A DNA stretch of 64,000 bases from an uncultured cyanobacterium (GTDB lineage Bacteria; Cyanobacteriota; Cyanobacteriia; Cyanobacteriales; CAWUOF01), in assembly GCA_963744145.1 (NCBI GenBank), contig CAVUSO010000001.1:1934831-1998830 (forward strand), in the 5' to 3' direction. The translations under genes were made by a program, and so were the position numbers. The first letter of the stretch is position 1, and the number at the start of each line of letters is the position of its first letter. This document shows positions 7,580 to 40,410 of this stretch, piece by piece. The notes below the pieces were generated by a model. That model saw nothing but the letters and a program-made list of their open reading frames with translations, did not search any database and was not told the DNA's origin.

Positions 7580-10500
7580 ATGTCTGTCAAGTCTGAAACT
7601 ATGCTGTCATCTATTTTTACAACCTGTGATCCACGCGATGAAGTCCTTGGTGGTAACTTATCCGAGGATATTTTTGCAGCTAAACTGAAGCAAGTAGTAG
7701 ATGGTAACGCACCTTTAGTTTACCAAGATCCACAGATATTTTTTGCTAATACATTTCCTACCAACGGACTCAAAACACTTATTTCAGAAGTATTTGGACG
7801 TTTAACAGGTGTTGATACTGGTTCCCCTGTAATTCGGTTAGAAACAAGCTTTGGTGGTGGAAAAACCCACGATGAAATCGCCCTTTGGCATATTGCTAAA
7901 AATGGACGGTGTATTAGTGGGTTAGATCGATTTATTAATGACATCAATATTATTCCAGATCAGCCGATTCAAGTAGCAGCGATCGCTTGTCAAGACCTAG
8001 ATCCGGTCAATGGTGTTTTCCATGAAGAATCAGGGATAAAAATTCATACCCTTTGGGGAGAAATAGCTTATCAAATTGGTGGAATAGAAGGTTATAGTTT
8101 ACTGAGAGGTTCGGACGAGCAGAAAGTTAGCCCAGGTACAGTTGTATTAGAAAAACTGACTAAAAAAGAACCAACAGTAATTATCCTTGATGAAATCGCT
8201 CAGTATCTGCGTCGCGCTAAAGCAATTCCTATTGGTAATAGTGATCTATCTGAACAAGTAGTTGCATTTCTATTTGCACTGATGGATTTAACTGCTGCTT
8301 GTAATAATATAGTATTTGTCTACACCCTAGCATCAATATCCGATACATTTGGCACTGAAACCGCAGATATTAAAGAAGCATTACAAGCATCAGCTCGACA
8401 AGAAAGGGTACTTAGTCCTAGTACGGATATGGAAATTTACAACATTGTTAAGCAGCGGATTTTTAAGAGGATTGAGGATAAAGCTGCTGATCTTGCTGCT
8501 AAGGATTATTTTAGTGTTTACCAAAACAGTCGGTTAAATCTACCTGATAGCTGTAAAGATGCTAACTATACTCAGGTATTAAAGTCTAGCTATCCCTTTT
8601 CACCGGAACTCTTTACTCTATTAACTAAAAAAATTGCTTCAATTCCTAATTTTCAACGCACCAGAGGAGCTTTACGATTACTTGCAATGGTAGTAAGACA
8701 TCTTTGGTTGGATACATCGGTATGGATACCAATGATTCATCCCCATCATATTCCTATTGGTGTAGATGAAGGTGTCACCAGTGAATTTACTTCTCGGTTA
8801 GAACGTCCCTTAATGCGAAACCCGATTCAAGCAGATATTTTTAATCCTGATGGTAAACTTGCTCATGCTCAAATATATGATGAAGAGTGGTTAGTAGCAG
8901 GAAAACCACCTTTTACAACATGGGTAGCAAGGACTATTTTTCTTCATTCAATTAATCAAGGGACTGTCGCAGGAATTCGACGCGCTGAGTTAAATTTAGC
9001 GTTACTTACTCCCAAGATTGAGATTAGTTTTATTGAACCGGTACTAGAACGTTTGACGACTGTAGCATGGTATTTAGATATTGATCCGGTGACAACGATC
9101 GCTCGTTTTAAAGAAGAGCCATCAATTAATAAAATTATTGCTGAGGAAAAAGAACAGATTCACACACTAGCTGCTAAAGAAACTCTGCGATCGCGACGGG
9201 ATAGTATTTTTGCTAATCAAGTATTTACCTTAGTTACTAATCCGGAAAGTGCGGGAGATGTGGATGATCAACCTGATGATATTGCTCTGTGTATAATTGA
9301 CTTTGATCAAGAAACTGTATCAGCACCAACGGATGGAGTACCTCCTCTAGTAGAACAAATTTTTCATAATACCGGGGAGTCTGGTAAGTTCCGGATATTT
9401 CGGAATCGGCTGCTTTTCTTAGTAGCAAATAAACATGAATTACAACGAGCGATCGAGATTACTAAAGAATATTTGGCAATCCAAAATATTTTGAAGTCAC
9501 CAAACCGTCTCGAAGATTTGTCTGAGTATCAGCGGAAGCAACTGCGAGAAAGGAGTGGAGCTAAAGATTTAGATGTAAGAGTTTCTTTAACTAATACCTA
9601 TCGTCATCTTTTTTATCCAACTAGCGATGCTGTCAAAGCACCAAAGGGATTATTACACTTCACTTTACCCGCTGAAGCTACAGGATATATAAAAGGAAAT
9701 AAGAATCAGCAGGATGTTATTCTCAAAGCTTTAAAAGATTGCGAAAAAATTCGCAAGGAAGATTTAGCTCCTGTTGCTCCTGCTTACATTTTGCAAAAAG
9801 TTTGGTTAGCAGGAATTGATCACTGGACGACCAAAGCTTTGCGCGAAGAATTTGCTAAGAAGCTTTCTCTAAATATGCTCCTTGATGCAGATATTTCCAA
9901 ACTAAGGGAAACCATCCGCACTGGAATAGAGAAAGGTCAATGGGATTTGAAAGTTGGTAATAAAGTCTATATTCTCTCTGACGATGGAAAATTACCAAAT
10001 TTGCCAGATACAATTGAGTTTTCTGATCGGATGGAGTTATATCGACGTGGGATTCTAAAACCTCCTGAACCCCGTGTGATTGAGTTTAATGCTCAAGTTA
10101 TGTCTAGTAGTAATTTAGCTAAACCTGTTCGTCTACGATGGCGATCGCTAGGTGCTTTATCAATTCAAGTTTATCAGGATAATATCCCGCTAACTGGTGA
10201 ATTTTCACCAACAGATAATTATGAAGTTGAAATTACCCAAACCACAACTTTCAAAATTGTCGCTGACTATGGTAATGGTGAAACCGCAGAAAAAGAAACT
10301 CAGGCTACAATTGCTTCCTATTCGACCCCAATCAGTGCAAAGACTAAGTTTCATGATACACCATCAATTTTTGAGGTTAAACCTGAGATCATAGAAGAAA
10401 ATGGGACTGTTAATGCTGCTTTTACCGCATTTAGCGATCGCTGTTCTGATGACAAAGTTAAAGGAGTTAAGAGTTTAGAAATTGCGGTGGATCAGGTGAT

Positions 10501-10819
10501 GGATTATCGTCGAATTACCACGGCTTTTTCCTTAATAGGGAAATTTAATTTTTCGATTGACCAAAAAGCAACTATTCAAATAGACGAGCAGTTTGTCCGA
10601 TTAGATTATCAAGGGAAATTGCGCGGTTTTCAAGGATTTCTTACAGCAATTAATGCGCTGCTAAGTAATGATCAAGTTAGGGCAAATGTGAGTCTCAAGT
10701 TGATATTTACTTTTGATCCGGCGATCGCCCATGATAGTAATGAGTTGATCACACTACAGCAAGCACTTAAGCGCAATCCTGTAGAGCGTCTATCTCTAAC
10801 AGCGAGGGTAAGTTACTAA
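7580..10819 (+). CDS. large Walker-type ATPase, COG1483/DUF499-like (BrxC/PglY-like) defence-associated protein
   Basis: Walker A SFGGGKTH and Walker B VIILDEIAQY near the N-terminus. About 1080 aa. TAATG stop/start overlap with the next ORF. Genomic association with a DUF1156 MTase and SNF2 helicase. Confidence 0.6.
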   Translation: MSVKSETMLSSIFTTCDPRDEVLGGNLSEDIFAAKLKQVVDGNAPLVYQDPQIFFANTFPTNGLKTLISEVFGRLTGVDTGSPVIRLETSFGGGKTHDEIALWHIAKNGRCISGLDRFINDINIIPDQPIQVAAIACQDLDPVNGVFHEESGIKIHTLWGEIAYQIGGIEGYSLLRGSDEQKVSPGTVVLEKLTKKEPTVIILDEIAQYLRRAKAIPIGNSDLSEQVVAFLFALMDLTAACNNIVFVYTLASISDTFGTETADIKEALQASARQERVLSPSTDMEIYNIVKQRIFKRIEDKAADLAAKDYFSVYQNSRLNLPDSCKDANYTQVLKSSYPFSPELFTLLTKKIASIPNFQRTRGALRLLAMVVRHLWLDTSVWIPMIHPHHIPIGVDEGVTSEFTSRLERPLMRNPIQADIFNPDGKLAHAQIYDEEWLVAGKPPFTTWVARTIFLHSINQGTVAGIRRAELNLALLTPKIEISFIEPVLERLTTVAWYLDIDPVTTIARFKEEPSINKIIAEEKEQIHTLAAKETLRSRRDSIFANQVFTLVTNPESAGDVDDQPDDIALCIIDFDQETVSAPTDGVPPLVEQIFHNTGESGKFRIFRNRLLFLVANKHELQRAIEITKEYLAIQNILKSPNRLEDLSEYQRKQLRERSGAKDLDVRVSLTNTYRHLFYPTSDAVKAPKGLLHFTLPAEATGYIKGNKNQQDVILKALKDCEKIRKEDLAPVAPAYILQKVWLAGIDHWTTKALREEFAKKLSLNMLLDADISKLRETIRTGIEKGQWDLKVGNKVYILSDDGKLPNLPDTIEFSDRMELYRRGILKPPEPRVIEFNAQVMSSSNLAKPVRLRWRSLGALSIQVYQDNIPLTGEFSPTDNYEVEITQTTTFKIVADYGNGETAEKETQATIASYSTPISAKTKFHDTPSIFEVKPEIIEENGTVNAAFTAFSDRCSDDKVKGVKSLEIAVDQVMDYRRITTAFSLIGKFNFSIDQKATIQIDEQFVRLDYQGKLRGFQGFLTAINALLSNDQVRANVSLKLIFTFDPAIAHDSNELITLQQALKRNPVERLSLTARVSY

Positions 10820-11247
10820 TGCAAGAGTTTCAATTAAGGGTTGTCCCGACAGATAACAATAATTTTGCTTTAGAATTATATCAATGTGCTTATAAGCAAG
10901 CGGGAGCAAAAAAACGTCCTGCTGCTAAACGGATTGGTAAAATTAAGGGTAATGCTTTGGTACTGACTAGACAGATGATCTATACAGTGCTGAAAACTAA
11001 TAAATATGATCCGAAAACTTTGAAATGCGATCGCCAAACGCCCTATATCCTTGATGAACAGTCAGGAGTAAGTTTAGCTTTGCTATTTCAAACAGTGCAA
11101 CCACTCTCAAAAGAAGACCGAATTGCTAACATTGCTAATGGTGTAATGGCGATGAGTAATGAGGAGGCACATTATTGGTTTGCTAAAGTTTCTAATGGGC
11201 ATAAAAAAAATGCACTCAAAGCGATTCGGGTGCTGTTGGGTGATTAG
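10819..11247 (+). CDS. small basic protein translationally coupled to the DUF499-like ATPase (possible DUF3780-like system component)
   Basis: ATG overlaps the upstream TAA (TAATG). Lys/Arg-rich. No recognisable catalytic motif. Confidence 0.4.
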   Translation: MQEFQLRVVPTDNNNFALELYQCAYKQAGAKKRPAAKRIGKIKGNALVLTRQMIYTVLKTNKYDPKTLKCDRQTPYILDEQSGVSLALLFQTVQPLSKEDRIANIANGVMAMSNEEAHYWFAKVSNGHKKNALKAIRVLLGD

Positions 11248-11278
11248 ATAAAAATTTTATAAACAATCGGAGAAAATC

Positions 11279-11998
11279 ATGATCGCTCCCACCAATCCCC
11301 GCCGCATCACCATTCCACCGCTAGAAAATGGCGATTTACTCTCCTGTCAAGAATTTGAACGGCGCTACACAGCTATGCCCAATCTCAAAAAAGCTGAACT
11401 AATCGAAGGAATTGTTTATATGGCTTCACCTTTACGGTTTGAACCCCATGCTGAACCTCATGCTGATTTAATTGGCTGGTTTTGGACTTACAAAATTAGT
11501 ACCCCTGGTGTGCGTCTAGGTGATAACCCCACTGTCCGTCTAGATGTGGATAATCAACCCCAGCCCGATGCGGTGTTGTTGATTGATACCCAAAAGGGAG
11601 GTCAAAGTTGCTTAAGTGATGATGGCTATATCAAAGGTGCGCCAGAACTTGTGGCTGAAATTGCTGCTAGTACCGCGACGATCGATCTACGGGACAAAAA
11701 GCGAGTTTATTGTCGCCATAGAGTTAAAGAATATTTAGTTTGGCAGGTAAGCGATGACCGCTTCGATTGGTTCTGCTGGCAAAATGGAGAATACATTGCT
11801 CTTACTCCTGATGCAGAAGGAATTATCCGCAGCCAAGTTTTTCCTGGTTTATGGTTAGCAACTTCAGCACTGCTAGCGGGAGATATCCCCCAAGTTATTG
11901 CTACCTTGCAAACTGGATTAGCAAGCACTGCCCATCAACAGTTTGTCCAAAAATTAGCCACCTTTTCTAACCACAATTCTGAAACGGGTAAAAAATGA
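11279..11998 (+). CDS. Uma2-family (DUF820) PD-(D/E)xK endonuclease
   Basis: Motifs ELIEGIVYMASP, PDAVLL, PELVAEIAASTATIDLRDKKRVYCRHRVKEYLVWQV typical of cyanobacterial Uma2 proteins. ATGA overlap with the next gene. Confidence 0.7.
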   Translation: MIAPTNPRRITIPPLENGDLLSCQEFERRYTAMPNLKKAELIEGIVYMASPLRFEPHAEPHADLIGWFWTYKISTPGVRLGDNPTVRLDVDNQPQPDAVLLIDTQKGGQSCLSDDGYIKGAPELVAEIAASTATIDLRDKKRVYCRHRVKEYLVWQVSDDRFDWFCWQNGEYIALTPDAEGIIRSQVFPGLWLATSALLAGDIPQVIATLQTGLASTAHQQFVQKLATFSNHNSETGKK

Positions 11999-12582
11999 TT
12001 ACTGTACCTAATAATCAAAAACTCTCACCTGATGAATATTTTGCATGGGAATCACAGCAAGAAATCCGTTATGAATATATTGATGGTAAGGTATTTGCAA
12101 TGGTAGGAGTAACGATAGCCCATAGCACGATCGCTACTAATTTGATTGCTTTACTGCGACCACATTTACGGGGACGAAATTGTCGAGTATTGGGGTCAGA
12201 TGCGAAAGTGGGTATTTCTCCAAGTGGTGAATTTTTCTATCCAGATTTATTGGTAACTTGTGACGATCGCGATCGCAATTTTGCTAAGGCGGTATTTTAT
12301 CCAAAGCTGATTATTGAGGTATTATCCCCTAGCACAGAAGCATACAATCGCGGTGGTAAGTTTGCGCGTTATCGACAGTTAGCAAGTTTGAACGAATATG
12401 TGTTAGTTAGCTCGGAAAGTATTGGGGTTGAGGTATTTCGGCTTAATGAGCGGAGCAAGTGGGAATTAACACCCTTTGGGGTTGGGGATTTGGTGCAGTT
12501 TGCTAGTATTGAATTTGAATGCGCGATCGCTGCAATTTATGAAGACGTGGATTTTTTAGAATACAGCGGATTCGGTGGCTGA
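11995..12582 (+). CDS. Uma2-family (DUF820) PD-(D/E)xK endonuclease
   Basis: YEYIDGKVFAMVG, YPDLLV, PKLIIEVLSPSTEAYNRGGKFARYRQLASLNEYVLV are Uma2 hallmarks. Confidence 0.75.
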   Translation: MITVPNNQKLSPDEYFAWESQQEIRYEYIDGKVFAMVGVTIAHSTIATNLIALLRPHLRGRNCRVLGSDAKVGISPSGEFFYPDLLVTCDDRDRNFAKAVFYPKLIIEVLSPSTEAYNRGGKFARYRQLASLNEYVLVSSESIGVEVFRLNERSKWELTPFGVGDLVQFASIEFECAIAAIYEDVDFLEYSGFGG

Positions 12583-12892
12583 TGAAGTACAGTAAGATTT
12601 GGCATGAATGGTGGGACAGGCATCTTGCCTGTCAGAGATTGTAAGTGATCTGTGTTGGTTGGGCAGGTTTATGATAGTTATCTGTTTGGAGCAGAATTGA
12701 TTGGTGAACCTGCCCCTACAAATCCTGTTAATCTTGTAATCCTCTCATCCTGATCGATTTTTTGGTAAATCCCTGTAGGGGCGGGTTCACCGATGAACTT
12801 GCCACACACAAATAACCCTTGTGCCGAGCGCAGTCGAGGTATTAATGAACCCGCCCTGCCCCACAGATCACCTTGATGAACTTCATAAACCT
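12583..12892 (+). repeat. MITE-like dispersed repeat (GGTGAACCCGCCCCTAC core family), about 310 bp copy with nested inverted repeats
   Basis: Contains ggtgaacctgcccctacaaatcc ... ctgtaggggcgggttcacc and gatctgtgttggttgggcaggtttatgat ... aacccgccctgccccacagatcacc pairs. Direct copy at about 17895-18160, inverted partial copy at about 14014-14165. Confidence 0.7.
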
Positions 12893-12922
12893 GGAATAGG
12901 CTGTAACCATTGAAGCTGTACA

Positions 12923-13369
12923 TTATTTAGTTTCTGTAAGCAATTGTTCTAGAGTCTCAGGAAAATCACCATTAAAAACCATGCGAGAGAATACATTGTA
13001 ACAGTCATTTTTATCGCCTTCTTTGCGTGGAAATCCTAGCCAAAGAATAATCAAAACCTTACGATCATCTGCTTCAAAAGCTCGAAAAAATAAACGGTAG
13101 CGATCGCTTAGTCCCATACCCTTTAAGCGTCCGTAATGTCTGAGGGAACCTTTGAGGGCAAATTGAGGTGCAAAGGGATCAAGAACTATTTTCTCTTTGA
13201 TCCCTATCATCACTGCGGCTAGTAATTTAACGGTGGGATGTTTGACAAATTCTTCCCTAGGGAGACTGAGTTTTAGTTGGTTAACTTGTGCCTTTAGTTG
13301 TCGTCTTTGTTCCCCAAATAAGTTGTCATGGAAGTAGATTTCCCAGCCATTACGGACGATGACGCTCAT
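12923..13369 (-). CDS. yhaV: type II toxin, YhaV-family ribonuclease-like
   Basis: About 148 aa. 4 bp overlap with an upstream AbrB/SpoVT-type antitoxin. Size, arrangement and sequence character match PrlF/YhaV modules. Confidence 0.5.
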   Translation of the reverse strand: MSVIVRNGWEIYFHDNLFGEQRRQLKAQVNQLKLSLPREEFVKHPTVKLLAAVMIGIKEKIVLDPFAPQFALKGSLRHYGRLKGMGLSDRYRLFFRAFEADDRKVLIILWLGFPRKEGDKNDCYNVFSRMVFNGDFPETLEQLLTETK

Positions 13370-13695
13370 GGGTCAAGCTCAACTCCTGCAAGAAGTTCAT
13401 CATCTTCCTGGGCCATTGCTTCTGTATAGGCTTCTAACTTATCGCTATTTTTGAGAGCATCTTTGGTGATGAAGTCCAGAAATAAACTCAACATTAAATT
13501 ATCGTCTTCTTCTTCCTCATCTGCTTCAGGTGTAACTGGTTCAAGCTTTACCAACAAAGTATTATCAGGTAGCACTTTCACCCATCCAGTAGCATTGGCA
13601 AATTGGGGGTTGTCATGATAAAACGAGGCTGGCAATCTAAAGCCTAAAGAGTTGCCAATTTTGGCTGGTGAGAGGGTGTAGGTTTTGGAACTCAT
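13366..13695 (-). CDS. prlF: type II antitoxin, AbrB/SpoVT (PrlF-like) with acidic C-terminal tail
   Basis: N-terminal swapped-hairpin motif IGNSLGFRLPASF. Acidic C-terminus (EADEEEEDD). Overlaps the toxin start. Confidence 0.55.
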   Translation of the reverse strand: MSSKTYTLSPAKIGNSLGFRLPASFYHDNPQFANATGWVKVLPDNTLLVKLEPVTPEADEEEEDDNLMLSLFLDFITKDALKNSDKLEAYTEAMAQEDDELLAGVELDP

Positions 13696-14013
13696 ATATG
13701 TTAGTACAAATTGTAATAACGATAATGCTATACTAGCACGAAAGTTTAAGGTGGTTACAATCTAGGTATGGACAAGTTCAATCTATGAAAATTCGGGAGT
13801 TATGAGCGATCGCTATTTCTATGCTTGAAAGCTATAGACAAAATAAATATATTAAATTTTAACCATCTCCGTTAGTCAGATGGGGTGGATTCATCCATGT
13901 GATCTGTAAGGTTGGGCGGTGCAATTGTATGACCAAGGGAATAATTTCCAAACAATCAAGATTAAATTAGATGATCAGAATAGATGGTCGATAAATTTAT
14001 GATTACAATTAAC

Positions 14014-14165
14014 CAGGATTTGTAGGGGCGGGTTCACCAATTAATTTTGTGACAAACCGATCACCATTATAAACCCGCCCAACCAACACAGATCAATCAC
14101 AATCGACTTTAACTGATCGGACAGGCAAGATGCCTGTCCCACAATCTTACTGTACTTCATCAATA
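14014..14165 (-). repeat. MITE-like dispersed repeat, partial inverted copy
   Basis: tgtaggggcgggttcacc ... aaacccgcccaaccaacacagatc ... gacaggcaagatgcctgtcccacaatcttactgtacttcatca is the reverse complement of the 12583-12650/12700 segments. Confidence 0.65.
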
Positions 14166-14499
14166 TAGAAATCCGCTGTAAATCAATCAATTTCCTCTCT
14201 AATCTCATATTCACCTTGGGGATATCGCACCAATATCTCATCAGCTAAACATCCTGCTGTCTGTTCAAAAAAACTAGAAGGCCAGCCTAATTCTTCAGAA
14301 GTTTGAGGTGGAGTTTGATTGCTCAAATCGTTCATGATATTTTCTGGTAGATGATGAGCAAAATCAGGATAAATTATTATTTTACTAAATTTAACCTACT
14401 TTATAGGTCGGCACAGATTCCCATGATGCTATAGTATAGCAATTACCCAGGAAAGTCAAGGGGTAATTTCTTTTTACTTCACTTACTCGAAAATTAATT

Positions 14500-17436
14500 A
14501 TGACTAACCCTAGTTCCCAGCGTCCTCAAGTTTTTATTGAAAAAATTATGCCCGTGAAGTTACTCAACGAGCAGGTATATTACGAACATGGGGGTAATCC
14601 GTTTAAGGGTTTACATCGGTGGTATTCGCGCAAACCTTTGTCCTTTAGTCGAGCCAGTGTGTTAGCTTCCTTGTTACCTGGGGATGTGACGATCGAGGAG
14701 TTTAAATATCTGTTAGGTTTGTACCCAGAACAAGAAGGTTTAAAACCAGATCCTGATATTAAGCTGTATAAAACACCTCCTGGTAAATTGAGAATTAAAA
14801 AGGTGCAGGATTATTGTGAAAAATTGTGGGGAACTCGAACTCCTACAGTTTTAGATGCGTTTGCAGGTGGTGGGAGTATTCCCTTTGAAGCAGCAAGATA
14901 TGGGTTTAATGTATTAGCATCGGATTTGAATCCTGTTGCAGTTGTGACAATGAAAGCTGCGATGGAATATCCCCTAAAGTTTGGACCGGATTTGCAGCAG
15001 GATATTGATCAATGGGTGAAGTGGGTAGGTGATGAAGCCGAGAAACGGTTAGCTGAGTTTTTCCCTTCTTTACCTGGGGAAACTGTACAGAATTATCTGT
15101 GGGCGCATACAGTGGTTTGTCCGAATTGTGAATCGGTTGTACCTTTGAGTCCGAATTGGTGGTTATATAAACGTCCAGAAAAGCAGAATTTACATAAATG
15201 GTGTGCAGTAAAGCCAATTCCTAACATTGAGAATAAGCGGGTTGATTTTGAATTGGTGAAGGGGAAGAAGGGAAAAGGAACAACTATTCAAACTGATGAT
15301 GGGGAATATGATCCTGATACTACAACTACTATTGGTCGAGGTGTTGGTAGATGTCCTAATTGCGACAATGTGATCGAAGATGATGTAATTAAATCTCAAG
15401 CGCAATCAGGTATTTTAGGACATCAACTTTATGCAGTTGCTTATAAAAAAGGTAAAGGAAGTTTAGAATTTAGAATTCCCGAAGAATTAGATTTAGAAGG
15501 AATTGATAAATCTCAATGTTATTTAAAATCACAATTTTTGGAAATTCAAGCTAATGGTATTTTGCCTGATGTTGCAGTTACTCATGGACAAGAAACTGAA
15601 AGATTATTCTCAATTGGGATTGATAGCTGGTACAAATTCTTTAATCCACGCCAACTTTTAACACTTGTTACATATTTAGAAATTATCAATGAAGCAAAAG
15701 CACTAATTCAGACTAAATGTGAAGAAGAAAAAGAAACAGCGATCGCTAAATTAAAATCTAATCCAGAAGTAGAGGATATCCAGAGGGCGATCGCAAATAT
15801 TGAATCCTACTATCAGAATAAAATTGAGGCGATCGCCACTTATTTAGCTTTGGTATTTGATAGATGTGTTGACAGAAATTCTAGGCTTGGACATTGGCAT
15901 TCAGCTAGAGGCTATGCAGAGATAGCAATGGCTCAACATTCTCTAAATCTAAATTGGAATTATCCTGAAACTAGCGGTGCAGGTGAACTCTGGCAATCAT
16001 GCGCTGATGCCTTTATATCAGATTATCAAAATCTTTGTGCCTTATTCGGAACTAAACCAGATTCAACAGGTATTTTAGGAATAGAACAACACAATCTCAA
16101 ATCCATTCAAATTGATTCAGCATCTGCTGACAGTCTAACGCATATTCTTGATAACTCAGTAGATGCAATTATCACCGATCCACCTTATTACGCAACCATC
16201 CAATATGCGGAACTATCAGACTTTTTTTATGTCTGGCAAAAACGCACCCTCGGCGATATCTTCCCCGATCTCTTCTGGATGGAACTTACAGACAAAGATC
16301 GCGAAACTGTAGCCAATCCTTCACGCTTTCGCAACATGGGAGCATCCCCCGAAGAACTCGCCAACCAAGACTATGAAGCAAAAATGGCAATGGCATTTGC
16401 TGAATATCATCGTGTCTTACGAGAAGACGGAGTAATGACCGTGCAATTCAATCACAAAGAATCAGGAGCATGGGATACCCTAGCATATTCCTTAATTAAT
16501 GCAGGTTTCGAGATCACCGCATCATGGTCAGTCAGCACCGAAAACCCCCAAAACCTCCACCAAGCCCAAAAGAACTCCGTCGCTAGTACAGTATTACTCG
16601 TGTGCCGCAAACGCGACCCCAACGCTGAACAAGCCTGGTGGGATGACCTCCGCCCCGAAGTCTCCAACCTAGTCGAACAACGCGCCCCAGAATTTGAAGC
16701 CAATGATATTCAAGGGATTGACCTTTATCTCAGCGCCTTTGGTCCGGCCCTCAACGTCTTCTCCCGCTCCTGGCCAGTTCTTGATAGTACAGGTAACGAA
16801 GTCCGCCCCGAAGTTGCATTTGCTGAAGCTCGCAAAGCTGTTGCTAACTACCGCTTCCGCAAACTCGCTCAAACCGACACAATGGGTTTTGACCCCGTTA
16901 CCCAATGGTATTTTCTCGCTTGGGATGCTTTCCGCGCCCGCGAATTTCCCTTTGATGACGCTCGACAACTTGCCCTAGCAGTAGGTGGTTTCAATGTCGC
17001 AGACCTAGGAAAAAGCTACAAAATCCTCGACATCAAAAGCGGTACTTGTAAATTCCTCAGCCCCGAACAACGCTACAAAAAACACGCATTCTCGATCGCA
17101 GACAATGAATTTTCTGCCCGTTATCTCATTGACGGACTCCACGCGATCATTGCTATCTATCAACAAGAACAAACCATCGAACCAATCCGCCGTTTTATGA
17201 AAGCCACAGAACTAATCAGCAATGATAAGTTTATGCGAGCTTGGGAAATAGCATTAAAAGTTATCCCTCGCATCGGAGACGATCGCAAACGCATCCCCGA
17301 AGAAAAAGCCTTATTAAATTTATGGTTAGCAATGGATGAAATCAAAGCCAAAGTAGTTTATGTGCAGCAGGAATTGCTTTTAGGACCTGGACAATTGACT
17401 TTAGATTTAAAAAGTGTTATTGATGAAGATAAATAA
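14500..17436 (+). CDS. DUF1156 / COG1743 Zn-ribbon N6-adenine DNA methyltransferase (defence-associated)
   Basis: N-terminal GGNPFKGLHRWYSRKP (DUF1156 signature). Zn-ribbon CPNCES...CPNCDN. Motif IV DPPY (IITDPPYYATIQY). Confidence 0.8.
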   Translation: MTNPSSQRPQVFIEKIMPVKLLNEQVYYEHGGNPFKGLHRWYSRKPLSFSRASVLASLLPGDVTIEEFKYLLGLYPEQEGLKPDPDIKLYKTPPGKLRIKKVQDYCEKLWGTRTPTVLDAFAGGGSIPFEAARYGFNVLASDLNPVAVVTMKAAMEYPLKFGPDLQQDIDQWVKWVGDEAEKRLAEFFPSLPGETVQNYLWAHTVVCPNCESVVPLSPNWWLYKRPEKQNLHKWCAVKPIPNIENKRVDFELVKGKKGKGTTIQTDDGEYDPDTTTTIGRGVGRCPNCDNVIEDDVIKSQAQSGILGHQLYAVAYKKGKGSLEFRIPEELDLEGIDKSQCYLKSQFLEIQANGILPDVAVTHGQETERLFSIGIDSWYKFFNPRQLLTLVTYLEIINEAKALIQTKCEEEKETAIAKLKSNPEVEDIQRAIANIESYYQNKIEAIATYLALVFDRCVDRNSRLGHWHSARGYAEIAMAQHSLNLNWNYPETSGAGELWQSCADAFISDYQNLCALFGTKPDSTGILGIEQHNLKSIQIDSASADSLTHILDNSVDAIITDPPYYATIQYAELSDFFYVWQKRTLGDIFPDLFWMELTDKDRETVANPSRFRNMGASPEELANQDYEAKMAMAFAEYHRVLREDGVMTVQFNHKESGAWDTLAYSLINAGFEITASWSVSTENPQNLHQAQKNSVASTVLLVCRKRDPNAEQAWWDDLRPEVSNLVEQRAPEFEANDIQGIDLYLSAFGPALNVFSRSWPVLDSTGNEVRPEVAFAEARKAVANYRFRKLAQTDTMGFDPVTQWYFLAWDAFRAREFPFDDARQLALAVGGFNVADLGKSYKILDIKSGTCKFLSPEQRYKKHAFSIADNEFSARYLIDGLHAIIAIYQQEQTIEPIRRFMKATELISNDKFMRAWEIALKVIPRIGDDRKRIPEEKALLNLWLAMDEIKAKVVYVQQELLLGPGQLTLDLKSVIDEDK

Positions 17437-17450
17437 GTGAAGCTAAAATT

Positions 17451-17774
17451 ATGAAAATTAAAGGTATTAAACGCGGTATCATGATTGAATTATTTGAAGA
17501 AATCGATATTCCTGATGGGATGGAAGTGATGGTTGAAATTCAAAATAGTCATCCTCTTGCAGGACTAAGTAAAGAAGAAATTCAAAAACGGATCAATAAA
17601 GTAGCAGGAGTCTGGAAAGACGATCCAGAAATTGAGCAAATCTTTGCAGAAATAAATCAAGAACCTTTGGAAATTGAGCGATCGGCTACAACCATCTCGC
17701 AACGAATGAAGCAATTTGCCCAAGATGGTATTGATCTAGATGCTAAAGAAGGCTTAACACAATTGAGAGAATAA
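17451..17774 (+). CDS. hypothetical small protein downstream of the MTase
   Basis: ORF 14 nt after the MTase stop. A partial duplicate of its 5' end (MKIKGIK...) follows at about 17769-17885. Confidence 0.35.
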   Translation: MKIKGIKRGIMIELFEEIDIPDGMEVMVEIQNSHPLAGLSKEEIQKRINKVAGVWKDDPEIEQIFAEINQEPLEIERSATTISQRMKQFAQDGIDLDAKEGLTQLRE

Positions 17775-17894
17775 AATCATGAAAATCAAAGGTATTAAAC
17801 AGGGTGTAACAGCGGTAGATCGTGGCAACCCAAACGCGATCGCGCAATTTAGTCATAAAACTGAATTACCACAAAAATACAGCGGATGACCCGT

Positions 17895-18160
17895 TGATGA
17901 AGTACAGTAAGATTTGGCGCTAATAGCGATAAGTTAAAGTCAATTGTGATTGATCTGTGTTGGTTGGGCGGGTTTATGATGTTGATCTATTTGTGTCAGA
18001 ATTAACTGGTGAACCCGCCCCTACAAATCCTGGTTTATTGTCCTCATAAATTCATCGACAATACATTTTTATGAGCTAGTAGGGGCGGGTTCACCGCTGA
18101 ATTTGCCACACACAAATAACTTTAATAAACCCGCCCAACCTCACAGATAACCTTGATGAA
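17895..18160 (+). repeat. MITE-like dispersed repeat (same family as 12583-12892)
   Basis: tgatgaagtacagtaagatttgg ... gatctgtgttggttgggcgggtttatgat ... ggtgaacccgcccctacaaatcctgg ... gtaggggcgggttcaccg ... aacccgcccaacctcacagataacc. Confidence 0.7.
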
Positions 18161-18300
18161 AACTACCCCATCTTACATCACAGACAACACTGCTATACTT
18201 CATAAATAGGTCATACGCTAGATCTCATCCAGATTGAGAGTCTTTAAAATGTCACAAGGCACATCAAAGATAACGATGCTGGACTTTTAAGGTATTTTTT

Positions 18301-21300
18301 ATGAAAAAATTGCGCGATCGCTATTGGAAAATCGGTTATGGTAGTGATGAAGATAACCTAATCGTTGATTTTTATATCCCGGCTCTTGAATGTGCCCTCC
18401 AATACGATCGCAAAGCCGGATTTTTTAATAGTACCATACTCAGTCGCGTCGCCAGAGGATTAGGAGCATTATTAGCAAATCAAGGACGAATGCGCTTAAT
18501 TATGGGTTGTCAGTTTTCTCCTGAAGACTTACAAGCGGTTCAACAAGGTTACGCATTACGAGAAACCCTAACTCATCGACTAGATCAAGAACTTACTCCA
18601 CCTGTCAACTTTGCCCAGCTCAAACATTTTGAAATCCTCAGTTGGTTGATTCAAAATGAATATCTCGATATTCGCATTGCAATTCCCCTCAAACCTAATG
18701 GTAATCCTGAATCCTCAGAATTGGTATTAGATCCAAAGCATTTATTTCACGAAAAAGTAGGCATTATTTCCGATGTAAATGGCGATCGCCTAGCTTTTAA
18801 TGGTTCCAATAATGAATCAATCGGTGGATGGCAATCTAACCTAGAATCATTTCATGTATTTTTTTCCTGGGATGGTGGTAGCGATTTACAAAGAGTACAA
18901 CATGAATGCGATCGCTTTGAGCGTCTTTGGAATGATGAACTTCCCAATGTGCGAGTATTTGAAATTCCTACAGCAGTAAAACAAAAACTATTAAATTATA
19001 CCCCAAACCAAAAACCCGACTGGAATCCGCAAGCAGAATTTAATACCAGCCCCATCACTTATTTAGAAACAATAAATGAGTTCCAAATCTCTGAAGAAGA
19101 ACTACAAAAAGAACGAGAACAATTTACCCAACTTGCTAATATTCATCACCATCCTGGTTGTCTAGACTTCTCAGTTAAATCAATTCCCATCAAACCTTGG
19201 GCACATCAACTAAAAATCTTGCGACGGATAGCAGCAGAGTTTCCCCGTAATGCTTTAATTGCTGATGAAGTAGGTTTAGGTAAAACCATTGAAACCGGTT
19301 TAATATTGCGTTACTTGCTGCTCTCGAAAAAAGCAACGCGAGTGTTAATTTTAGTACCAGCTAGTGTACAACCTCAGTGGCAAGAAGAAATGCGGGAAAA
19401 ATTTAACTTGCACTTCTGGTCCTATGGCAAAAATGAACTGGTTGATCCGTACCAACAATCAGTCGCGATCGCCGGAAATCTTTGGAATCAGAAAAACCTG
19501 ATCCTTGCATCTAGTCATCTAGTCAGACGCAAAGAACGAATGCAAGAATTACTAAACTCTGAAGCATGGGATTTAATCGTTTTAGATGAAGCACATCACG
19601 CAAGAAGAAAAAGCCCTCAAAATCACAAAGATACTCCCAACCGTCTACTTGAACTAATGGAGCGTCTGAGAACAAATACTCAAGCTTTGCTACTCCTTTC
19701 TGCAACACCAATGCAAATTGATGCGATCGAAATGTTTGATTTAATCAAGTTACTTGGTTTAAAAGGTCATTGGGAATTTCCTGATAATTTTTGTCATTAT
19801 TTCGCCACTCTATCTGAATCACCTAATAAAGATATGCTCAACTTTTGGCAAACCATGTCTACAGATTATTTTGATCATGGTGGTCAGCCTTGTAGTAAAA
19901 TTCAGAAAGGATTAGAAACTAGCGATCGCCTGTTATTTTATCAACTTGAGGATATTTGGCGCAATGGTCAGAAAATAACTAATCCTCAGAAATATCTAGC
20001 CGATGATAATTTTATCAGTGCATCTCAAAGATTTCTGGCAACTAATACACCGATTAAAGACTTAATGTTTCGCCACACCCGCGATACATTGCGAGAATAT
20101 TTTAAACGTGGTTTATTAGCTCAAGATGTACCGATAAGAGAGGTATTTGATCATGCAATTGCTCTCGAAGCAAATCGCGAAGTTCATCTCTATATTGCTG
20201 TTAGTGATTACGTGCGACATTTTTACCGTCTCGCGCAAAAGGAAAACCGCAAAGCCCTGGGTTTTCTAATGACCCTATATCGTAAACGTCTCACCAGTTC
20301 TTTCTATGCGATCGAGAAATCATTACAACGTAGATTAGATTATTTACTTACTCAACAGGGTAGCTTATTAGGAGATGATGACTACAGCGATCTAGAAGAT
20401 GCCGATGATGCTATTATTGAAGGCTTAGAATCCTTCATGGAACCCATAGATCCAAAGGAAATTGAATATTTACAAGATTTATTGCATCAATTTGACAATA
20501 CAGGGGAAGATACCAAGCGATCAAAATTTATCAACAAATTAAGACAAGAATTCTTAGAGCGTGATAGTGCGATCATCTTTACCCAATATACCGATACAAT
20601 GGACTATTTGCGCGATATCTTAACTCAATTATATGGTTCATCAGTTGCCTGTTATTCAGGAAGGGGTGGAGAAATCAATTATGATGGTAAATGGCAAATT
20701 ATCCCCAAGGAAGAAATCAAAAGACGGTTTCGTGATGGGGAAATTAAAATCTTGCTATGTACCGAGTCAGCTAGTGAAGGGCTAAATTTACAAACTTGTG
20801 GAGTTTTATTTAATTATGATATGCCTTGGAATCCGATGCGAGTGGAGCAGCGGATCGGACGGATTGATCGGATTGGTCAAAAATTCTCTCAAGTCAGAAT
20901 CCATAATTTTTACTATGACGGAACAGTAGAAGCAAAAGTCTATCGTAAATTGCGCGATCGCATCCAAGCATTTACCACAGTAGTTGGTAATCTGCAACCC
21001 ATCCTCGCTCTTGTACCTACTTTTATTGAAAAAGCAGTAATGAGTGCCGATCCCTTAGAAGAAAATGTCTTGCTGTCGGAATTTGAGCAAACTTTGGATA
21101 TATCACCTTTACAACCTGCACTTAATGATGCTGTCGCAATGGATGTGGAAGCCGATCTTACTGAACTTCGTCAACCAATCCCATCATCTCCCTTTAATGC
21201 TGAAATAATCGAACAGGTTTTGACGCGATCGCGACTATTACAGAAAGCCGGAATTAGGTTTGAGAAGATCGCAGAAAAGCTGTGGAAATTACAATTAGAA

Positions 21301-21426
21301 GATCAATCTTATCAAGTTACCTTTTATGCCGATACTTTTGACGAACATCCATCTTTGCGATTAATGACTTTTGGTGATCCTATTTTTGAGCTCCTGTTGC
21401 ATAAACGTTTAGCGTCAGCAACCTGA
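18301..21426 (+). CDS. PLD-family nuclease domain fused to SNF2/DEAD-like helicase (defence-associated)
   Basis: HxKxxxxD motif (HEKVGIISD) at the N-terminus. Helicase motifs I (DEVGLGKTIE), II (VLDEAHHARR), III (SATPMQ) and C-terminal helicase block (LLCTESASEGLNLQ, QRIGRIDRIGQ). Confidence 0.8.
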   Translation: MKKLRDRYWKIGYGSDEDNLIVDFYIPALECALQYDRKAGFFNSTILSRVARGLGALLANQGRMRLIMGCQFSPEDLQAVQQGYALRETLTHRLDQELTPPVNFAQLKHFEILSWLIQNEYLDIRIAIPLKPNGNPESSELVLDPKHLFHEKVGIISDVNGDRLAFNGSNNESIGGWQSNLESFHVFFSWDGGSDLQRVQHECDRFERLWNDELPNVRVFEIPTAVKQKLLNYTPNQKPDWNPQAEFNTSPITYLETINEFQISEEELQKEREQFTQLANIHHHPGCLDFSVKSIPIKPWAHQLKILRRIAAEFPRNALIADEVGLGKTIETGLILRYLLLSKKATRVLILVPASVQPQWQEEMREKFNLHFWSYGKNELVDPYQQSVAIAGNLWNQKNLILASSHLVRRKERMQELLNSEAWDLIVLDEAHHARRKSPQNHKDTPNRLLELMERLRTNTQALLLLSATPMQIDAIEMFDLIKLLGLKGHWEFPDNFCHYFATLSESPNKDMLNFWQTMSTDYFDHGGQPCSKIQKGLETSDRLLFYQLEDIWRNGQKITNPQKYLADDNFISASQRFLATNTPIKDLMFRHTRDTLREYFKRGLLAQDVPIREVFDHAIALEANREVHLYIAVSDYVRHFYRLAQKENRKALGFLMTLYRKRLTSSFYAIEKSLQRRLDYLLTQQGSLLGDDDYSDLEDADDAIIEGLESFMEPIDPKEIEYLQDLLHQFDNTGEDTKRSKFINKLRQEFLERDSAIIFTQYTDTMDYLRDILTQLYGSSVACYSGRGGEINYDGKWQIIPKEEIKRRFRDGEIKILLCTESASEGLNLQTCGVLFNYDMPWNPMRVEQRIGRIDRIGQKFSQVRIHNFYYDGTVEAKVYRKLRDRIQAFTTVVGNLQPILALVPTFIEKAVMSADPLEENVLLSEFEQTLDISPLQPALNDAVAMDVEADLTELRQPIPSSPFNAEIIEQVLTRSRLLQKAGIRFEKIAEKLWKLQLEDQSYQVTFYADTFDEHPSLRLMTFGDPIFELLLHKRLASAT

Positions 21427-21540: not shown

Positions 21541-22044
21541 TTGGGTTTAGATCCTAAACTGATGCAAGTGACCTATAAGCAACAGGAAATCACCTTCAGA
21601 CCCAAAGAATATGCTCTGCTCCAACTATTTCTGCAACATCCTCAGCGCATTTTTAGCCGCAATACCATTATCGATCAGCTTTGGTCGATCGACCAATCGC
21701 CAACGGAAGCAGCCGTAACAACTTTGATCAAAGACTTGCGTCGTCGGTTAAAAGCCGCAGGAATTACCGAAGAAGTGATTGAGACAGTTCATGGGTTGGG
21801 ATATCGACTTACAACAGCACCAACAGTTGAAAAGAGCAGTTCTCCGACTTCTTTGGGAAAATCTAGATTGCCTGGATGTGAATCTGAATCAAAAATCGGG
21901 GAACTACCGAAAGTTTCAGAGGATAGTTTAGTAGAGCGATTTAGAGTGTCCTTAAAGCAGAGATTAAGAGTCTTAGAGGAAATGGAAGTCGCGCTACACC
22001 ATCAACTCAGGAGATCAGTTCAAATTCTCTTGTGCTGGCAATAG
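21541..22044 (+). CDS. stand-alone OmpR/PhoB-type winged-helix DNA-binding domain protein (no receiver)
   Basis: trans_reg_C-like segment EITFRPKEYALLQLFLQHPQRIFSRNTIIDQLW...VTTLIKDLRRRL...VHGLGYRL. Start codon is a non-ATG in the track; the true start may be the MQVTYK Met. Confidence 0.55.
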   Translation: MGLDPKLMQVTYKQQEITFRPKEYALLQLFLQHPQRIFSRNTIIDQLWSIDQSPTEAAVTTLIKDLRRRLKAAGITEEVIETVHGLGYRLTTAPTVEKSSSPTSLGKSRLPGCESESKIGELPKVSEDSLVERFRVSLKQRLRVLEEMEVALHHQLRRSVQILLCWQ

Positions 22045-22385
22045 TCAGCGATGCTACATTTGCAAAAAGACTTCAGCAGGAAGCACCACGATGGGGACTG
22101 AGGCTGGAAGTCATCAGCGATCGTTCAACAGTGCAACATCGATTAACACAAACCACCCCAGAAGTAATTCTGCTGGCTCTAGATGGTGATGGGGCGGACA
22201 ATCCCTTGGCGCTATTGCAAACAATAAAGGCAGATTATCCAGCCATGCCGATTGTCATCCTGTCAGATCCTGAATCAATGCGACGAGCATTTGCCGTTGG
22301 AGCCAATGATGTGCTTGGAAAACCTGTGGTTGAAGCCGAGTTGGTGACAAGGATGATCAGCCGAATCAAGCAATTAGGCCAATAA
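22032..22385 (+). CDS. stand-alone receiver-like (CheY-like) domain, partly degenerate acid pocket
   Basis: LAIVSDA...ILLALDGDG...IVILSD...GANDVLGKP matches the receiver topology but the N-terminal DD pair is reduced to SD. GTG start. Confidence 0.45.
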   Translation: MLAIVSDATFAKRLQQEAPRWGLRLEVISDRSTVQHRLTQTTPEVILLALDGDGADNPLALLQTIKADYPAMPIVILSDPESMRRAFAVGANDVLGKPVVEAELVTRMISRIKQLGQ

Positions 22386-22392
22386 GCAGATT

Positions 22393-40290: not shown

Positions 40291-40410
40291 AGGGGCAGGT
40301 TCACCAGTCAATTTTGCTACCAACAGATCACCATTATAAACCTGCCCTGACTTAACAGATCAACCTCAGATTAAGTGCAATTTCATAGTTAATTGGTATC
40401 AGCACCACCA
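40288..40410 (+). repeat. right half of the MITE-like element split by the IS
   Basis: gggcaggttcaccagtcaatttt...caacagatcaccattataaacctgccctg...tcaacctcagattaagtgcaatttcatagttaattggtatca matches 58958-59066. Confidence 0.75.

What the first reader, a model, noticed from the sequence alone, without database searches (positions are those of the whole stretch)
7580..21426. Composite defence island: DUF499-like ATPase, coupled small ORF, DUF1156 Zn-ribbon N6-A methyltransferase, PLD-SNF2 helicase, with embedded nuclease, TA and MITE passengers
Four genes form the core. The first is a roughly 1080 aa Walker A/B ATPase (SFGGGKTH, VIILDEIAQY). A 142 aa ORF is coupled to it by a TAATG overlap. The third is a 978 aa methyltransferase with the DUF1156 N-terminal signature (GGNPFKGLHRWYSRKP), Zn ribbons and a DPPY motif. 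The fourth is a 1041 aa protein fusing a PLD HxK nuclease motif to a complete SNF2 helicase. The COG1483 ATPase / COG1743 MTase / COG0553 helicase combination was predicted from comparative genomics as an RM-like or BREX-like defence module. To my knowledge it has not been mechanistically characterised, and it may relate to methylation-associated systems such as MADS or BREX variants. This locus is unusual because the core is physically interrupted. Between the ATPase and the MTase lie two coupled Uma2 PD-(D/E)xK nuclease genes and a PrlF/YhaV TA pair. Three copies of a MITE-like repeat sit at the module junctions. The PLD nuclease is fused to the helicase rather than encoded separately. This may be an undescribed variant of a methylation-based defence system in which the restriction function is supplied by PLD and possibly Uma2 nucleases.
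Basis: partly seen in the sequence, partly recalled or inferred. Interest (0 to 1): 0.85.

Follow-up and report, generated by a model that had tools for sequence, protein, structure and literature searches.

The report
BREX-related defence operon carrying passenger genes
This cyanobacterial locus is an intact four-gene anti-phage system of an already described kind (ATPase, small protein, DNA methylase, nuclease-helicase), and the passenger genes interrupting it are the normal state for such systems; the only new point is that its small subunit belongs to the unstudied DUF7680 family.

Summary
The core is a DUF499 ATPase, a 142-aa protein, a DUF1156 N6-adenine methylase and an HKD(PLD)-SNF2 helicase. 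This is the system published as Hma, as DUF499-centred BREX-related (BR) systems, and as Gao_RL/MANTIS.

Published surveys find 63-67% of Hma loci interrupted, and 77-82% of the 80 cyanobacterial relatives I examined are interrupted at the same two junctions. The HKD-helicase fusion is the defining trait of published Type-2 BR systems. The Uma2 pair, the YhaV/PrlF pair and the three palindromic MITEs are exchangeable cargo, not core parts.

The modestly new point concerns the small gene. It is DUF7680, not DUF3780. DUF7680 sits in the same operon slot in cyanobacteria, alphaproteobacteria and haloarchaea. It is the most conserved of the four proteins and matches no solved structure. It shares DUF3780's order of secondary-structure elements, an EE-x-(Y/W)W motif and ASCH-domain fusions. 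No paper in the searchable library mentions it, and the lineage falls far below the PADLOC and NCBIfam models of the canonical system.

Verdict: a divergent, widespread, unnamed variant of a known defence type. Interest is low to moderate.

The parts
7580..10819 (+). Core gene 1: DUF499 / BrxC-like AAA+ ATPase (HmaC-like), 1079 aa
   Evidence: Pfam DUF499 5e-33; PADLOC HmaC 6e-103 and DUF499 4.5e-36; NCBIfam DUF499_antiphage 170 bits against a cut-off of 1200. Walker A and B are intact. The C-terminal 280 aa are the least conserved part, at median 52% identity.
10819..11247 (+). Core gene 2: DUF7680 small subunit, 142 aa, coupled to the ATPase by a TAATG overlap
11279..11998 (+). Cargo: Uma2-family PD-(D/E)xK nuclease a, 239 aa
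   Evidence: Pfam Uma2 6e-28; PADLOC candidate PDC-S03 1e-11. No homologue at this position in related loci.
11995..12582 (+). Cargo: Uma2-family nuclease b, 195 aa. Its stop codon is the first triplet of MITE copy A.
   Evidence: Pfam Uma2 1e-36; PDC-S03 6e-29. An 81%-identical homologue occupies the same slot only in L006.
12580..12885 (+). MITE-like palindromic repeat, copy A
   Evidence: Folds as one long hairpin, -119 kcal/mol.
12923..13369 (-). Cargo: YhaV-family toxin, 148 aa
   Evidence: Pfam Toxin_YhaV 1e-43.
13366..13695 (-). Cargo: PrlF-like antitoxin, 109 aa (weak match), joined to the toxin gene by an ATGA overlap
   Evidence: Pfam PrlF 7e-4 and NCBIfam 3e-5, both below cut-off. 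Junction shown.
13885..14165 (-). MITE-like repeat, copy B (inverted, partial). Together with copy A it brackets the TA pair.
14183..14335 (-). Orphan 50-aa ORF resembling the small partner gene of VapC toxins; a likely remnant of earlier cargo
   Evidence: ORF found. Its DNA matches the 'hypothetical protein | VapC toxin' junction on several Nostoc plasmids.
14500..17436 (+). Core gene 3: DUF1156 N6-adenine DNA methyltransferase with a nested target-recognition insert and a 4-Cys Zn ribbon, 978 aa
   Evidence: Pfam DUF1156 1e-7, MethyltransfD12, N6_N4_Mtase; PADLOC HmaB 3e-78 and DUF1156_MTase 1e-53; NCBIfam DUF1156_antiphage 243 bits against a cut-off of 1000. FAGGG, DPPY and two CxxC pairs.
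17451..17774 (+). Cargo: 107-aa ORF, probably a VapB-like antitoxin without its toxin
   Evidence: No family hit. Its N-terminal 71 aa recur in 12 related loci, and one sampled PIN gene (L037, cluster found in 4 loci) lies just downstream of such a copy.
17779..17889 (+). 36-aa stub that duplicates the start of the 107-aa ORF and ends at MITE copy C
   Evidence: (repeat D9).
17894..18165 (+). MITE-like palindromic repeat, copy C
   Evidence: hairpin -103 kcal/mol.
18301..21426 (+). Core gene 4: N-terminal HKD (PLD-type) nuclease fused to an SNF2/RapA-like helicase, 1041 aa
   Evidence: Pfam SNF2-rel_dom 2e-20, Helicase_C 2.5e-19, PLDc_2 0.0066; PADLOC PbeA (N-terminus) 1.6e-78, PLD_Helicase 1.4e-75, HmaA 5.6e-63; NCBIfam phospholipD_antiphage 375 bits against a cut-off of 1100. 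The HxK...GSxN motif is conserved in Aminobacter, Bradyrhizobium and Halobacterium homologues. The closest solved relative is RapA, 3e-41.

Best explanation
The locus is an intact four-gene DUF499-centred BREX-related (Hma / Gao_RL-MANTIS-type) restriction-modification-like defence system. It belongs to a lineage whose small subunit is DUF7680. Exchangeable passenger genes occupy its two standard insertion junctions.

Inferred mechanism, by homology and from the literature:
1. The DUF1156 N6-adenine methyltransferase marks host DNA at a site read by its nested Zn-ribbon recognition insert.
2. The BrxC-like DUF499 ATPase, whose C-terminus varies fastest, assembles the surveillance complex and senses invading or unmodified DNA.
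3. The SNF2 motor translocates on that DNA, and its N-terminal single-HKD nuclease cuts it. The nuclease would need to dimerise.
4. DUF7680 is the counterpart of DUF3780 in the canonical system. It is a small, strongly conserved alpha+beta adaptor or modified-base 'reader' that couples the ATPase to the methylase and helicase.

The Uma2 pair, the YhaV/PrlF pair, the orphan antitoxin-like ORFs and the three palindromic MITEs are cargo. They landed in the DUF7680->MTase and MTase->helicase junctions. They act independently or, at most, as back-up effectors.

Shown here: gene content, motif integrity, conserved gene order, cargo turnover, and the family placement of each protein. Inferred: every biochemical step.
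For: - Domain and family assignments and intact catalytic motifs.
- Gene order ATPase-DUF7680-[gap]-MTase-[gap]-helicase in all informative loci among 80 cyanobacterial species-level loci (203 such loci were found). The ATPase->DUF7680 gap has a median of 51 bp. The other two gaps have medians of 1322 and 1044 bp and reach 8.1 kb.
- The same four genes occur compactly, without cargo, in Aminobacter, Bradyrhizobium and Methylosinus. In an Azospirillaceae contig an ABC-ATPase cassette sits at the same junction.
- The canonical Acinetobacter system has the identical order with DUF3780 in the DUF7680 slot. All three large window proteins align collinearly with it at 23-26% identity, against 30-38% for members of the DUF7680 lineage.
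- Cargo in related loci includes known defence or TA modules: IetA/IetS, a TIR-Mrr fusion, ThiF, MazF, ParE, zeta toxin, RES, PIN, Macro, Uma2, DUF4058 and an IS200 transposase.
- DUF7680 and DUF3780 share the secondary-structure order b-b-b-a-a-b-a-a-a-a. An invariant EE-x-(Y/W)W motif starts the equivalent helix in both. DUF7680 has N-terminal ASCH fusions, as reported for DUF3780.
- Literature for the system type, for embedding and for the mechanistic model. MANTIS title and term counts.
Against: - No experiment exists on any DUF7680-type system.
- Profile-profile comparison finds no significant DUF7680-DUF3780 similarity (Prob 0.1-0.2%). The DUF3780 model is low-confidence (pLDDT 50), so homology of the two small proteins is not established.
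- The opposite-strand TA cassette and the hairpin-forming MITEs break the operon. The MTase and helicase would therefore need their own promoters, and the promoter scan was no better than chance.
- HmaB methylation could not be demonstrated in the one Hma study.
- I could not read the MANTIS preprint, so using it rests on its title and term counts only.
Confidence: 0.8

Rival explanations
1. One reading: an integrated composite system in which the Uma2 nucleases, and perhaps the TA pair, are functional parts of the restriction machinery. This would make it an undescribed variant defined by its interruption.
For: The Uma2 genes are on the same strand, immediately after DUF7680 and translationally coupled to each other. 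Uma2 matches the PADLOC embedded-candidate family PDC-S03. PMC12839542 proposes that standalone PD-(D/E)xK nucleases inside BR loci act as auxiliary effectors. Uma2 recurs in about 10 other loci of the clade.
Against: Uma2 is absent from most relatives, including the five closest Pseudanabaena-type loci. When present it is found at either junction. The proteobacterial systems have no cargo at all. The TA pair is on the opposite strand, bracketed by MITEs. In the closest plasmid relative a different TA family (MazF/RHH) sits at the same place.
Confidence: 0.1
2. It is simply a classical Hma / Type-1 BR system (TUDOR-SNF2 helicase with a C-terminal PD-(D/E)xK nuclease), and the small gene is irrelevant.
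For: The ATPase and MTase score higher on PADLOC HmaC and HmaB (344 and 262 bits) than on the Gao_RL-type DUF499 and DUF1156_MTase models (122 and 181 bits). The same holds for the Aminobacter ATPase and MTase.
Against: The helicase carries an N-terminal HKD domain that is conserved across the lineage. It aligns collinearly with the canonical PLD-helicase from residue 13. A small gene in the DUF3780 slot is universal in the lineage. Both traits define Type-2, not Type-1. In the one non-HKD, Hma-like locus I sampled (Klebsiella, L089), neither small ORF tested (339 and 166 aa) matched any Pfam family, including DUF7680.
Confidence: 0.07
3. The locus is a decaying relic. MITE and TA insertions have uncoupled the genes, and the system no longer functions.
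For: There are three MITEs, a truncated duplicate ORF, orphan antitoxin-like remnants and an opposite-strand cassette between core genes. No promoter signal stands above chance.
Against: All four core ORFs are full length relative to homologues, and every catalytic motif is intact. Occupied junctions are the majority state in a clade whose core proteins remain 60-92% identical, which implies continued selection.
Confidence: 0.08
4. DUF7680 is not related to DUF3780. It was recruited independently and does something different in this lineage.
For: hhalign probabilities are 0.1-0.2%. Pfam keeps the two as separate families. The DUF3780 model is too poor for a real fold comparison.
Against: The two share the operon slot, the order of ten secondary-structure elements, the position of the EE-x-(Y/W)W motif and the ASCH fusion partner. 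The published description of the DUF3780 fold, a 4-stranded sheet plus 5 helices, also fits.
Confidence: 0.25

Closest known systems
Type-2 DUF499-centred BREX-related (BR) system, also known as Gao_RL or 'MANTIS' (DUF499 / DUF3780 / DUF1156 / PLD-helicase). Example: Acinetobacter baumannii pSSMA17_1.
   Same: Same four-gene order. It has a BrxC-like DUF499 ATPase, a DUF1156 N6-MTase with a nested recognition insert, and an SNF2 helicase with an N-terminal HKD nuclease. A small alpha+beta protein lies between the ATPase and the MTase. All three large proteins are collinear with the window's.
   Different: The small protein is DUF7680 (142 aa), not DUF3780 (195 aa), and the two show no detectable sequence similarity. 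The large proteins are only 23-26% identical. They score 122-253 bits on PADLOC models where the canonical proteins score 1758-1972, and 170-375 bits against NCBIfam cut-offs of 1000-1200. The canonical example is compact, whereas this locus carries cargo at both junctions.
Hma / Type-1 BR system (HmaA helicase-nuclease, HmaB methylase, HmaC ATPase; Payne 2021; Liu 2024)
   Same: The ATPase, MTase and SNF2 triad is the same. The window's ATPase and MTase give their best PADLOC hits to HmaC and HmaB. Embedded defence genes between the core genes are very common.
   Different: The Hma helicase has an N-terminal TUDOR domain and a C-terminal PD-(D/E)xK nickase, and no small fourth gene is described. 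Here the nuclease is an N-terminal HKD domain and DUF7680 is universal.
Type-3 BREX (BrxC, BrxXI/PglXI, BrxHII, PglZ and others)
   Same: The ATPase, the N6-MTase with a nested TRD and the RapA-like SNF2 helicase are homologous.
   Different: No PglZ, BrxA, BrxB/F or BrxL is present in or near the locus. The effector here is the fused HKD nuclease.
Genes 'embedded' in defence systems (guilt-by-embedding; Payne 2024 preprint)
   Same: Cargo lies between core genes, and much of it is known defence or TA modules. Uma2 matches their PADLOC candidate PDC-S03.
   Different: In this clade 32% of cargo ORFs are on the opposite strand, against 3.3% in their data set (96.7% co-oriented). TA modules and MITE/IS200 elements are prominent.

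Membership tests
Type-2 BR / Gao_RL / MANTIS-type system | DUF499 (BrxC-like) AAA+ ATPase | tested here: met
   Pfam DUF499 5e-33, with Walker A and B intact. Collinear with the canonical ATPase at 23% identity, E 3e-26.
Type-2 BR / Gao_RL / MANTIS-type system | DUF1156 N6-adenine MTase with a nested TRD | tested here: met
   DUF1156 1e-7. FAGGG at 121 and DPPY at 560 are separated by a ~430-aa insert containing two CxxC pairs.
Type-2 BR / Gao_RL / MANTIS-type system | SNF2 helicase with an N-terminal HKD endonuclease in place of TUDOR | tested here: met
   HEK...GSNN at residues 150-171 is conserved across the lineage. PLDc_2 is weak (0.0066). The alignment to the canonical PLD-helicase starts at residue 13.
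Type-2 BR / Gao_RL / MANTIS-type system | Standalone DUF3780 gene within the locus (98% of taxa) | tested here: not met
   The gene in that slot is DUF7680 (3e-46) with no DUF3780 hit. hhalign Prob 0.1-0.2%. The shared secondary-structure order, motif and ASCH fusions suggest equivalence.
Type-2 BR / Gao_RL / MANTIS-type system | Scores above the NCBIfam 'anti-phage' equivalog cut-offs | tested here: not met
   170 against 1200, 243 against 1000 and 375 against 1100 bits.
Hma / Type-1 BR | HmaA, HmaB and HmaC homologues co-located on one strand | tested here: met
   PADLOC HmaC 6e-103, HmaB 3e-78, HmaA 5.6e-63.
Hma / Type-1 BR | Helicase with a C-terminal active PD-(D/E)xK nuclease and an N-terminal TUDOR domain | tested here: inconclusive
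   No nuclease family hit in the C-terminal 140 aa, and the N-terminus is an HKD domain.
Type-3 BR and BREX types 1-6 | PglZ, plus iSTAND/BrxB and BrxL where applicable, in the locus | tested here: not met
   No such domains in any ORF from 3.4 to 24.3 kb.
DISARM | DrmA helicase plus DrmB (DUF1998), with DrmC or DrmD | tested here: not met
   The only resemblance is a DrmD-like score for the SNF2 core (NCBIfam 293 bits against a cut-off of 610). No DrmA or DrmB.
MADS | The mad1-mad8 gene set | tested here: not met
   Only a weak mad2 hit to the MTase core (2.6e-7). No other mad genes.
YhaV/PrlF type II TA | YhaV toxin with an upstream, overlapping PrlF antitoxin | tested here: inconclusive
   The toxin is clear (1e-43). 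The antitoxin hit is below the curated cut-offs (7e-4 and 3e-5). The ATGA overlap is typical.

The most novel reading that the evidence does not exclude
DUF7680 systems are a fourth, unnamed subtype of DUF499-centred BREX-related defence. They span cyanobacteria, proteobacteria and haloarchaea, and have no dedicated model in PADLOC or NCBIfam. In this subtype DUF7680 would be an obligatory adaptor or modified-base reader. It has a fold without a solved relative and is the most conserved subunit. The cyanobacterial branch would serve as a standing landing pad for TA and defence cargo, with both junctions occupied in about 80% of species.
Probability: 0.45. Interest if true: 0.45.

Novelty: new variant of a known kind. 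Interest (0 to 1): 0.32.

Why it matters
The system type is already catalogued, so the locus itself does not open a new field. Three things have practical value.

1. Current defence-finder models (PADLOC v2, NCBIfam r20) are tuned to the DUF3780 and Hma lineages. They recognise this widespread DUF7680 lineage only weakly, so it is probably under-counted or mislabelled.
2. DUF7680 is a compact, highly conserved, structurally confident protein of unknown function. It sits at the heart of a methylation-based defence system. Comparing it with DUF3780 could show what the small subunit does in MANTIS/BR systems.
3. The cyanobacterial clade offers a dense natural catalogue of cargo at two fixed junctions. 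It includes several unannotated families present in 9-15 species each, which could be mined for new defence or TA genes.

Tried and rejected
- The MANTIS preprint (10.64898/2026.09.23.753747) is indexed but could not be opened under either DOI form. I used only its title, the start of its abstract and term counts.
- The Foldseek afdb50 library was unavailable, so I could not test whether DUF3780 models are structural neighbours of DUF7680.
- Sequence searches of the PDB found no relatives of the ATPase, MTase or DUF7680.
- hhalign of DUF7680 against DUF3780 was negative, both with a single sequence and with family profiles.
- The DUF3780 AF2 model had low confidence (pLDDT 50) and is usable only for secondary-structure order.
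- Rfam found nothing in 6-23 kb.
- The promoter and terminator scan was no better than shuffled sequence.
- The supplements of PMC12839542 and of the embedding preprint, as held, did not contain the accessions or the PDC-S03/Uma2 terms I searched. I therefore could not see how those authors classified this lineage.
- The two Uma2 proteins are not recent paralogues.
- DISARM, BREX proper, MADS and Type-3 BR were considered and rejected because their defining genes are absent.

Full report
**Observation.** Profile searches confirm each assignment.
- 7580-10819 is a DUF499 ATPase (Pfam 5e-33) with GGGKT and VIILDE.
- 10819-11247 overlaps it as TAATG and is Pfam DUF7680 (3e-46). It is not DUF3780.
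- 11279-11998 and 11995-12582 are two Uma2 nucleases.
- 12923-13369(-) is a YhaV toxin (1e-43). The overlapping antitoxin at 13366-13695(-) is only weakly PrlF-like.
- 14500-17436 is a DUF1156 methyltransferase with FAGGG, DPPY and two CxxC pairs.
- 18301-21426 is an SNF2 helicase with an N-terminal HEK...GSNN motif.

The MITE-like repeat is real. Three copies lie at 12580-12885, 13885-14165 (inverted) and 17894-18165. Copies A and C fold as single long hairpins. Core fragments occur at about 40.3, 54.9 and 59.0 kb. The 17-mer core occurs 9 times against 0 expected. With 69 HIP1 octamers, the window is cyanobacterial.

**What the core is.** PADLOC matches the three large proteins to HmaC (6e-103), HmaB (3e-78) and HmaA/PLD_Helicase/PbeA. 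NCBIfam matches the 'anti-phage-associated' DUF499, DUF1156 and PLD-helicase equivalogs, but far below their cut-offs.

The literature has described this triad three times:
- As Hma, with 1,638 instances in 26 phyla (PMC8565338).
- With HmaA shown to defend against T4 through a nickase domain (PMC11232893).
- As 'DUF499-centred BREX-related (BR) systems' of three types (PMC12839542).

Type-2 BR is defined by an N-terminal HKD nuclease on the helicase (83% of taxa) and a standalone DUF3780 gene (98%). A September 2026 preprint is titled 'Dual ATPase-activated DNA hemimethylation and cleavage by the MANTIS defence system'. It names Gao_RL in its abstract and mentions DUF499, phospholipase D and BrxC. 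I could not open it.

**Interruption is the norm.** Published surveys find embedded genes in 62.7% and 66.5% of Hma loci.

I fetched 80 of the 203 species-level cyanobacterial loci that encode a DUF7680 homologue and mapped the window's proteins onto them. The order ATPase-DUF7680-MTase-helicase is invariant. The ATPase->DUF7680 gap has a median of 51 bp. The DUF7680->MTase gap exceeds 600 bp in 54 of 66 loci (median 1322 bp, maximum 8132 bp). The MTase->helicase gap exceeds 600 bp in 41 of 53 loci (median 1044 bp). The window's gaps of 3252 and 864 bp are unremarkable.

The 254 cargo ORFs fall into 95 clusters. Identified families are:
- known defence genes: IetA/IetS, a TIR-Mrr fusion, ThiF, PD-DExK, ImmA/IrrE-HTH;
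- toxin or TA components: MazF, ParE, zeta-toxin-like, RES and PIN proteins;
- nuclease-like families common in cyanobacteria: Uma2, DUF4058;
- others: Macro-DUF6508, an IS200 Y1 transposase.

Several unannotated families are present in 9-15 species each.

The closest annotated relative is Pseudanabaena galeata plasmid pPg_04. It has a MazF/RHH pair on the opposite strand exactly where the window has YhaV/PrlF. A close homologue of the window's Uma2b is embedded only in L006, and more divergent Uma2 genes occur in about 10 other loci, at either junction. The Uma2 pair, the TA pair and the MITEs are therefore passengers.

Remnants point to repeated turnover. These are a 36-aa duplicate stub at 17779 and a 50-aa orphan ORF at 14183-14335 whose DNA matches VapC-partner genes on Nostoc plasmids.

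**The small subunit.** DUF7680 is the part not covered by the literature I could search: no paper in the library holds the term. It follows the ATPase in every cyanobacterial locus. It does the same in Aminobacter pMET2, Bradyrhizobium, Methylosinus, an Azospirillaceae contig and Halobacterium pHSAL2.

The family is large:
- 335 clusters at 90% identity from the cyanobacterial query and 2,443 from the Aminobacter query, compared with 1,327 for DUF3780 from an Acinetobacter query;
- 725 clusters at 50% identity.

It is the most conserved of the four core proteins in 27 of 27 loci, with a median of 75% identity against 62-70% for the others. The C-terminal 280 aa of the ATPase are the least conserved region, at 52%. 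This fits the published 'hypervariable C-terminal sensor' idea.

The canonical Acinetobacter system has DUF3780 in the same slot. Sequence and profile comparisons between the two families are negative. Three observations nevertheless suggest equivalence:
- The DUF3780 model, although low-confidence, has the identical order of ten secondary-structure elements. This also fits the published description of its fold.
- The invariant EE-x-HYWF of DUF7680 and PEERWWLY of DUF3780 both start the penultimate helix.
- Four DUF7680 clusters carry an N-terminal ASCH domain. ASCH is one of the 'reader' fusion partners reported for DUF3780.

**Placement.** The window's ATPase, MTase and helicase align end to end at 30-38% identity with the proteobacterial and archaeal DUF7680-lineage proteins. 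They align collinearly at only 23-26% with the canonical DUF3780 system.

On the PADLOC models, the canonical proteins score 1758-1972 bits. The window's score 122-253 bits on those models and 211-344 bits on the Hma models. The lineage thus has the Type-2 architecture, but it is a separate, deep branch without a dedicated model. PglZ, iSTAND, DrmA/B, BrxL and the mad genes are absent. That excludes Type-3 BR, BREX proper, DISARM and MADS.

**Mechanism.** This is inferred from homology and the cited papers and is not shown here.
- The MTase marks self DNA.
- The BrxC-like ATPase assembles and senses.
- The SNF2 motor with its single-HKD nuclease restricts unmodified DNA.
- DUF7680 acts as a conserved adaptor or reader.

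All catalytic motifs are intact and all four ORFs are full length. The opposite-strand cassette and the hairpin MITEs imply internal promoters for the MTase and helicase. The consensus scan could not demonstrate them.

**Verdict.** The locus is a divergent, widespread but unnamed variant of a known defence type. Its interest lies mainly in the DUF7680 subunit and in the cargo catalogue of the cyanobacterial clade.

Noticed in passing
window 12580-12885, 13885-14165, 17894-18165; fragments at 40291-40363, 54895-54956, 58950-59028 and about 38507: A palindromic MITE of about 270-306 bp that begins and ends with TGATGAA. Copies A and C fold as single long hairpins (-119 and -103 kcal/mol). It is absent from all 80 related loci, so it is specific to this genome lineage. 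Copy A starts exactly at the Uma2b stop codon. Copies A and B bracket the TA pair like a composite element. IS200-type Y1 transposase genes occur as cargo in 4 related loci, which hints at a possible mobilising enzyme.
   Followed up: partly
window 17451-17774 and 17779-17889: A 107-aa ORF with no family hit. Its N-terminal 71 aa recur in 12 related loci, and one sampled PIN gene (L037, cluster found in 4 loci) lies just downstream of such a copy, so it is probably a VapB-like antitoxin. Here the toxin is missing. A 36-aa duplicate of its start abuts MITE copy C.
   Followed up: partly
window 14183-14335 (-): A 50-aa ORF (MNDLSNQTPPQTSEELGWPSSFFEQTAGCLADEILVRYPQGEYEIREEID) just upstream of the MTase. 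Its DNA matches 'hypothetical protein' genes next to VapC toxins on several Nostoc plasmids. It is a likely orphan antitoxin remnant.
   Followed up: partly
window 12678-12923 (-): An 81-aa ORF that lies entirely within MITE copy A and has no family hit. It is probably not a gene.
   Followed up: yes
window 21541-22773 (+): Three short ORFs immediately downstream of the helicase. The first has only a Trans_reg_C output domain and a TTG start. The next two have response-regulator receiver domains. They may be fragmented or unusual two-component regulators.
   Followed up: no
L032:10449-10976, L049:842-1384, L060:10855-11247, L005:11633-12259 and their clusters: Four cargo families with no Pfam annotation (175, 180, 130 and 208 aa) recur on the same strand at the system's junctions in 9-15 cyanobacterial species each. 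The 208-aa family hits a PADLOC Cas-associated PD-DExK model. The other three have no PADLOC hit either and are candidates for new accessory or defence genes.
   Followed up: partly
L010 and L016 (same contig JBHYDF010000001.1, about 32 kb apart): One Nostocaceae MAG contig carries two copies of the whole system with identical layout and identity values. This could be a large duplication or an assembly repeat.
   Followed up: no
L084 17252-19817 (Pseudanabaena galeata pPg_04): Directly downstream of the homologous system lies a multiubiquitin / E2 / ThiF(E1) / DUF6527 cluster, followed by CRISPR-Cas genes. In this close relative the system sits in a plasmid defence island.
   Followed up: no
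P0477, P0480, P0506, P0510: ASCH-DUF7680 fusion proteins of 296-340 aa exist in four separate 50%-identity clusters. Their genomic context could not be looked up with the tools available.
   Followed up: partly
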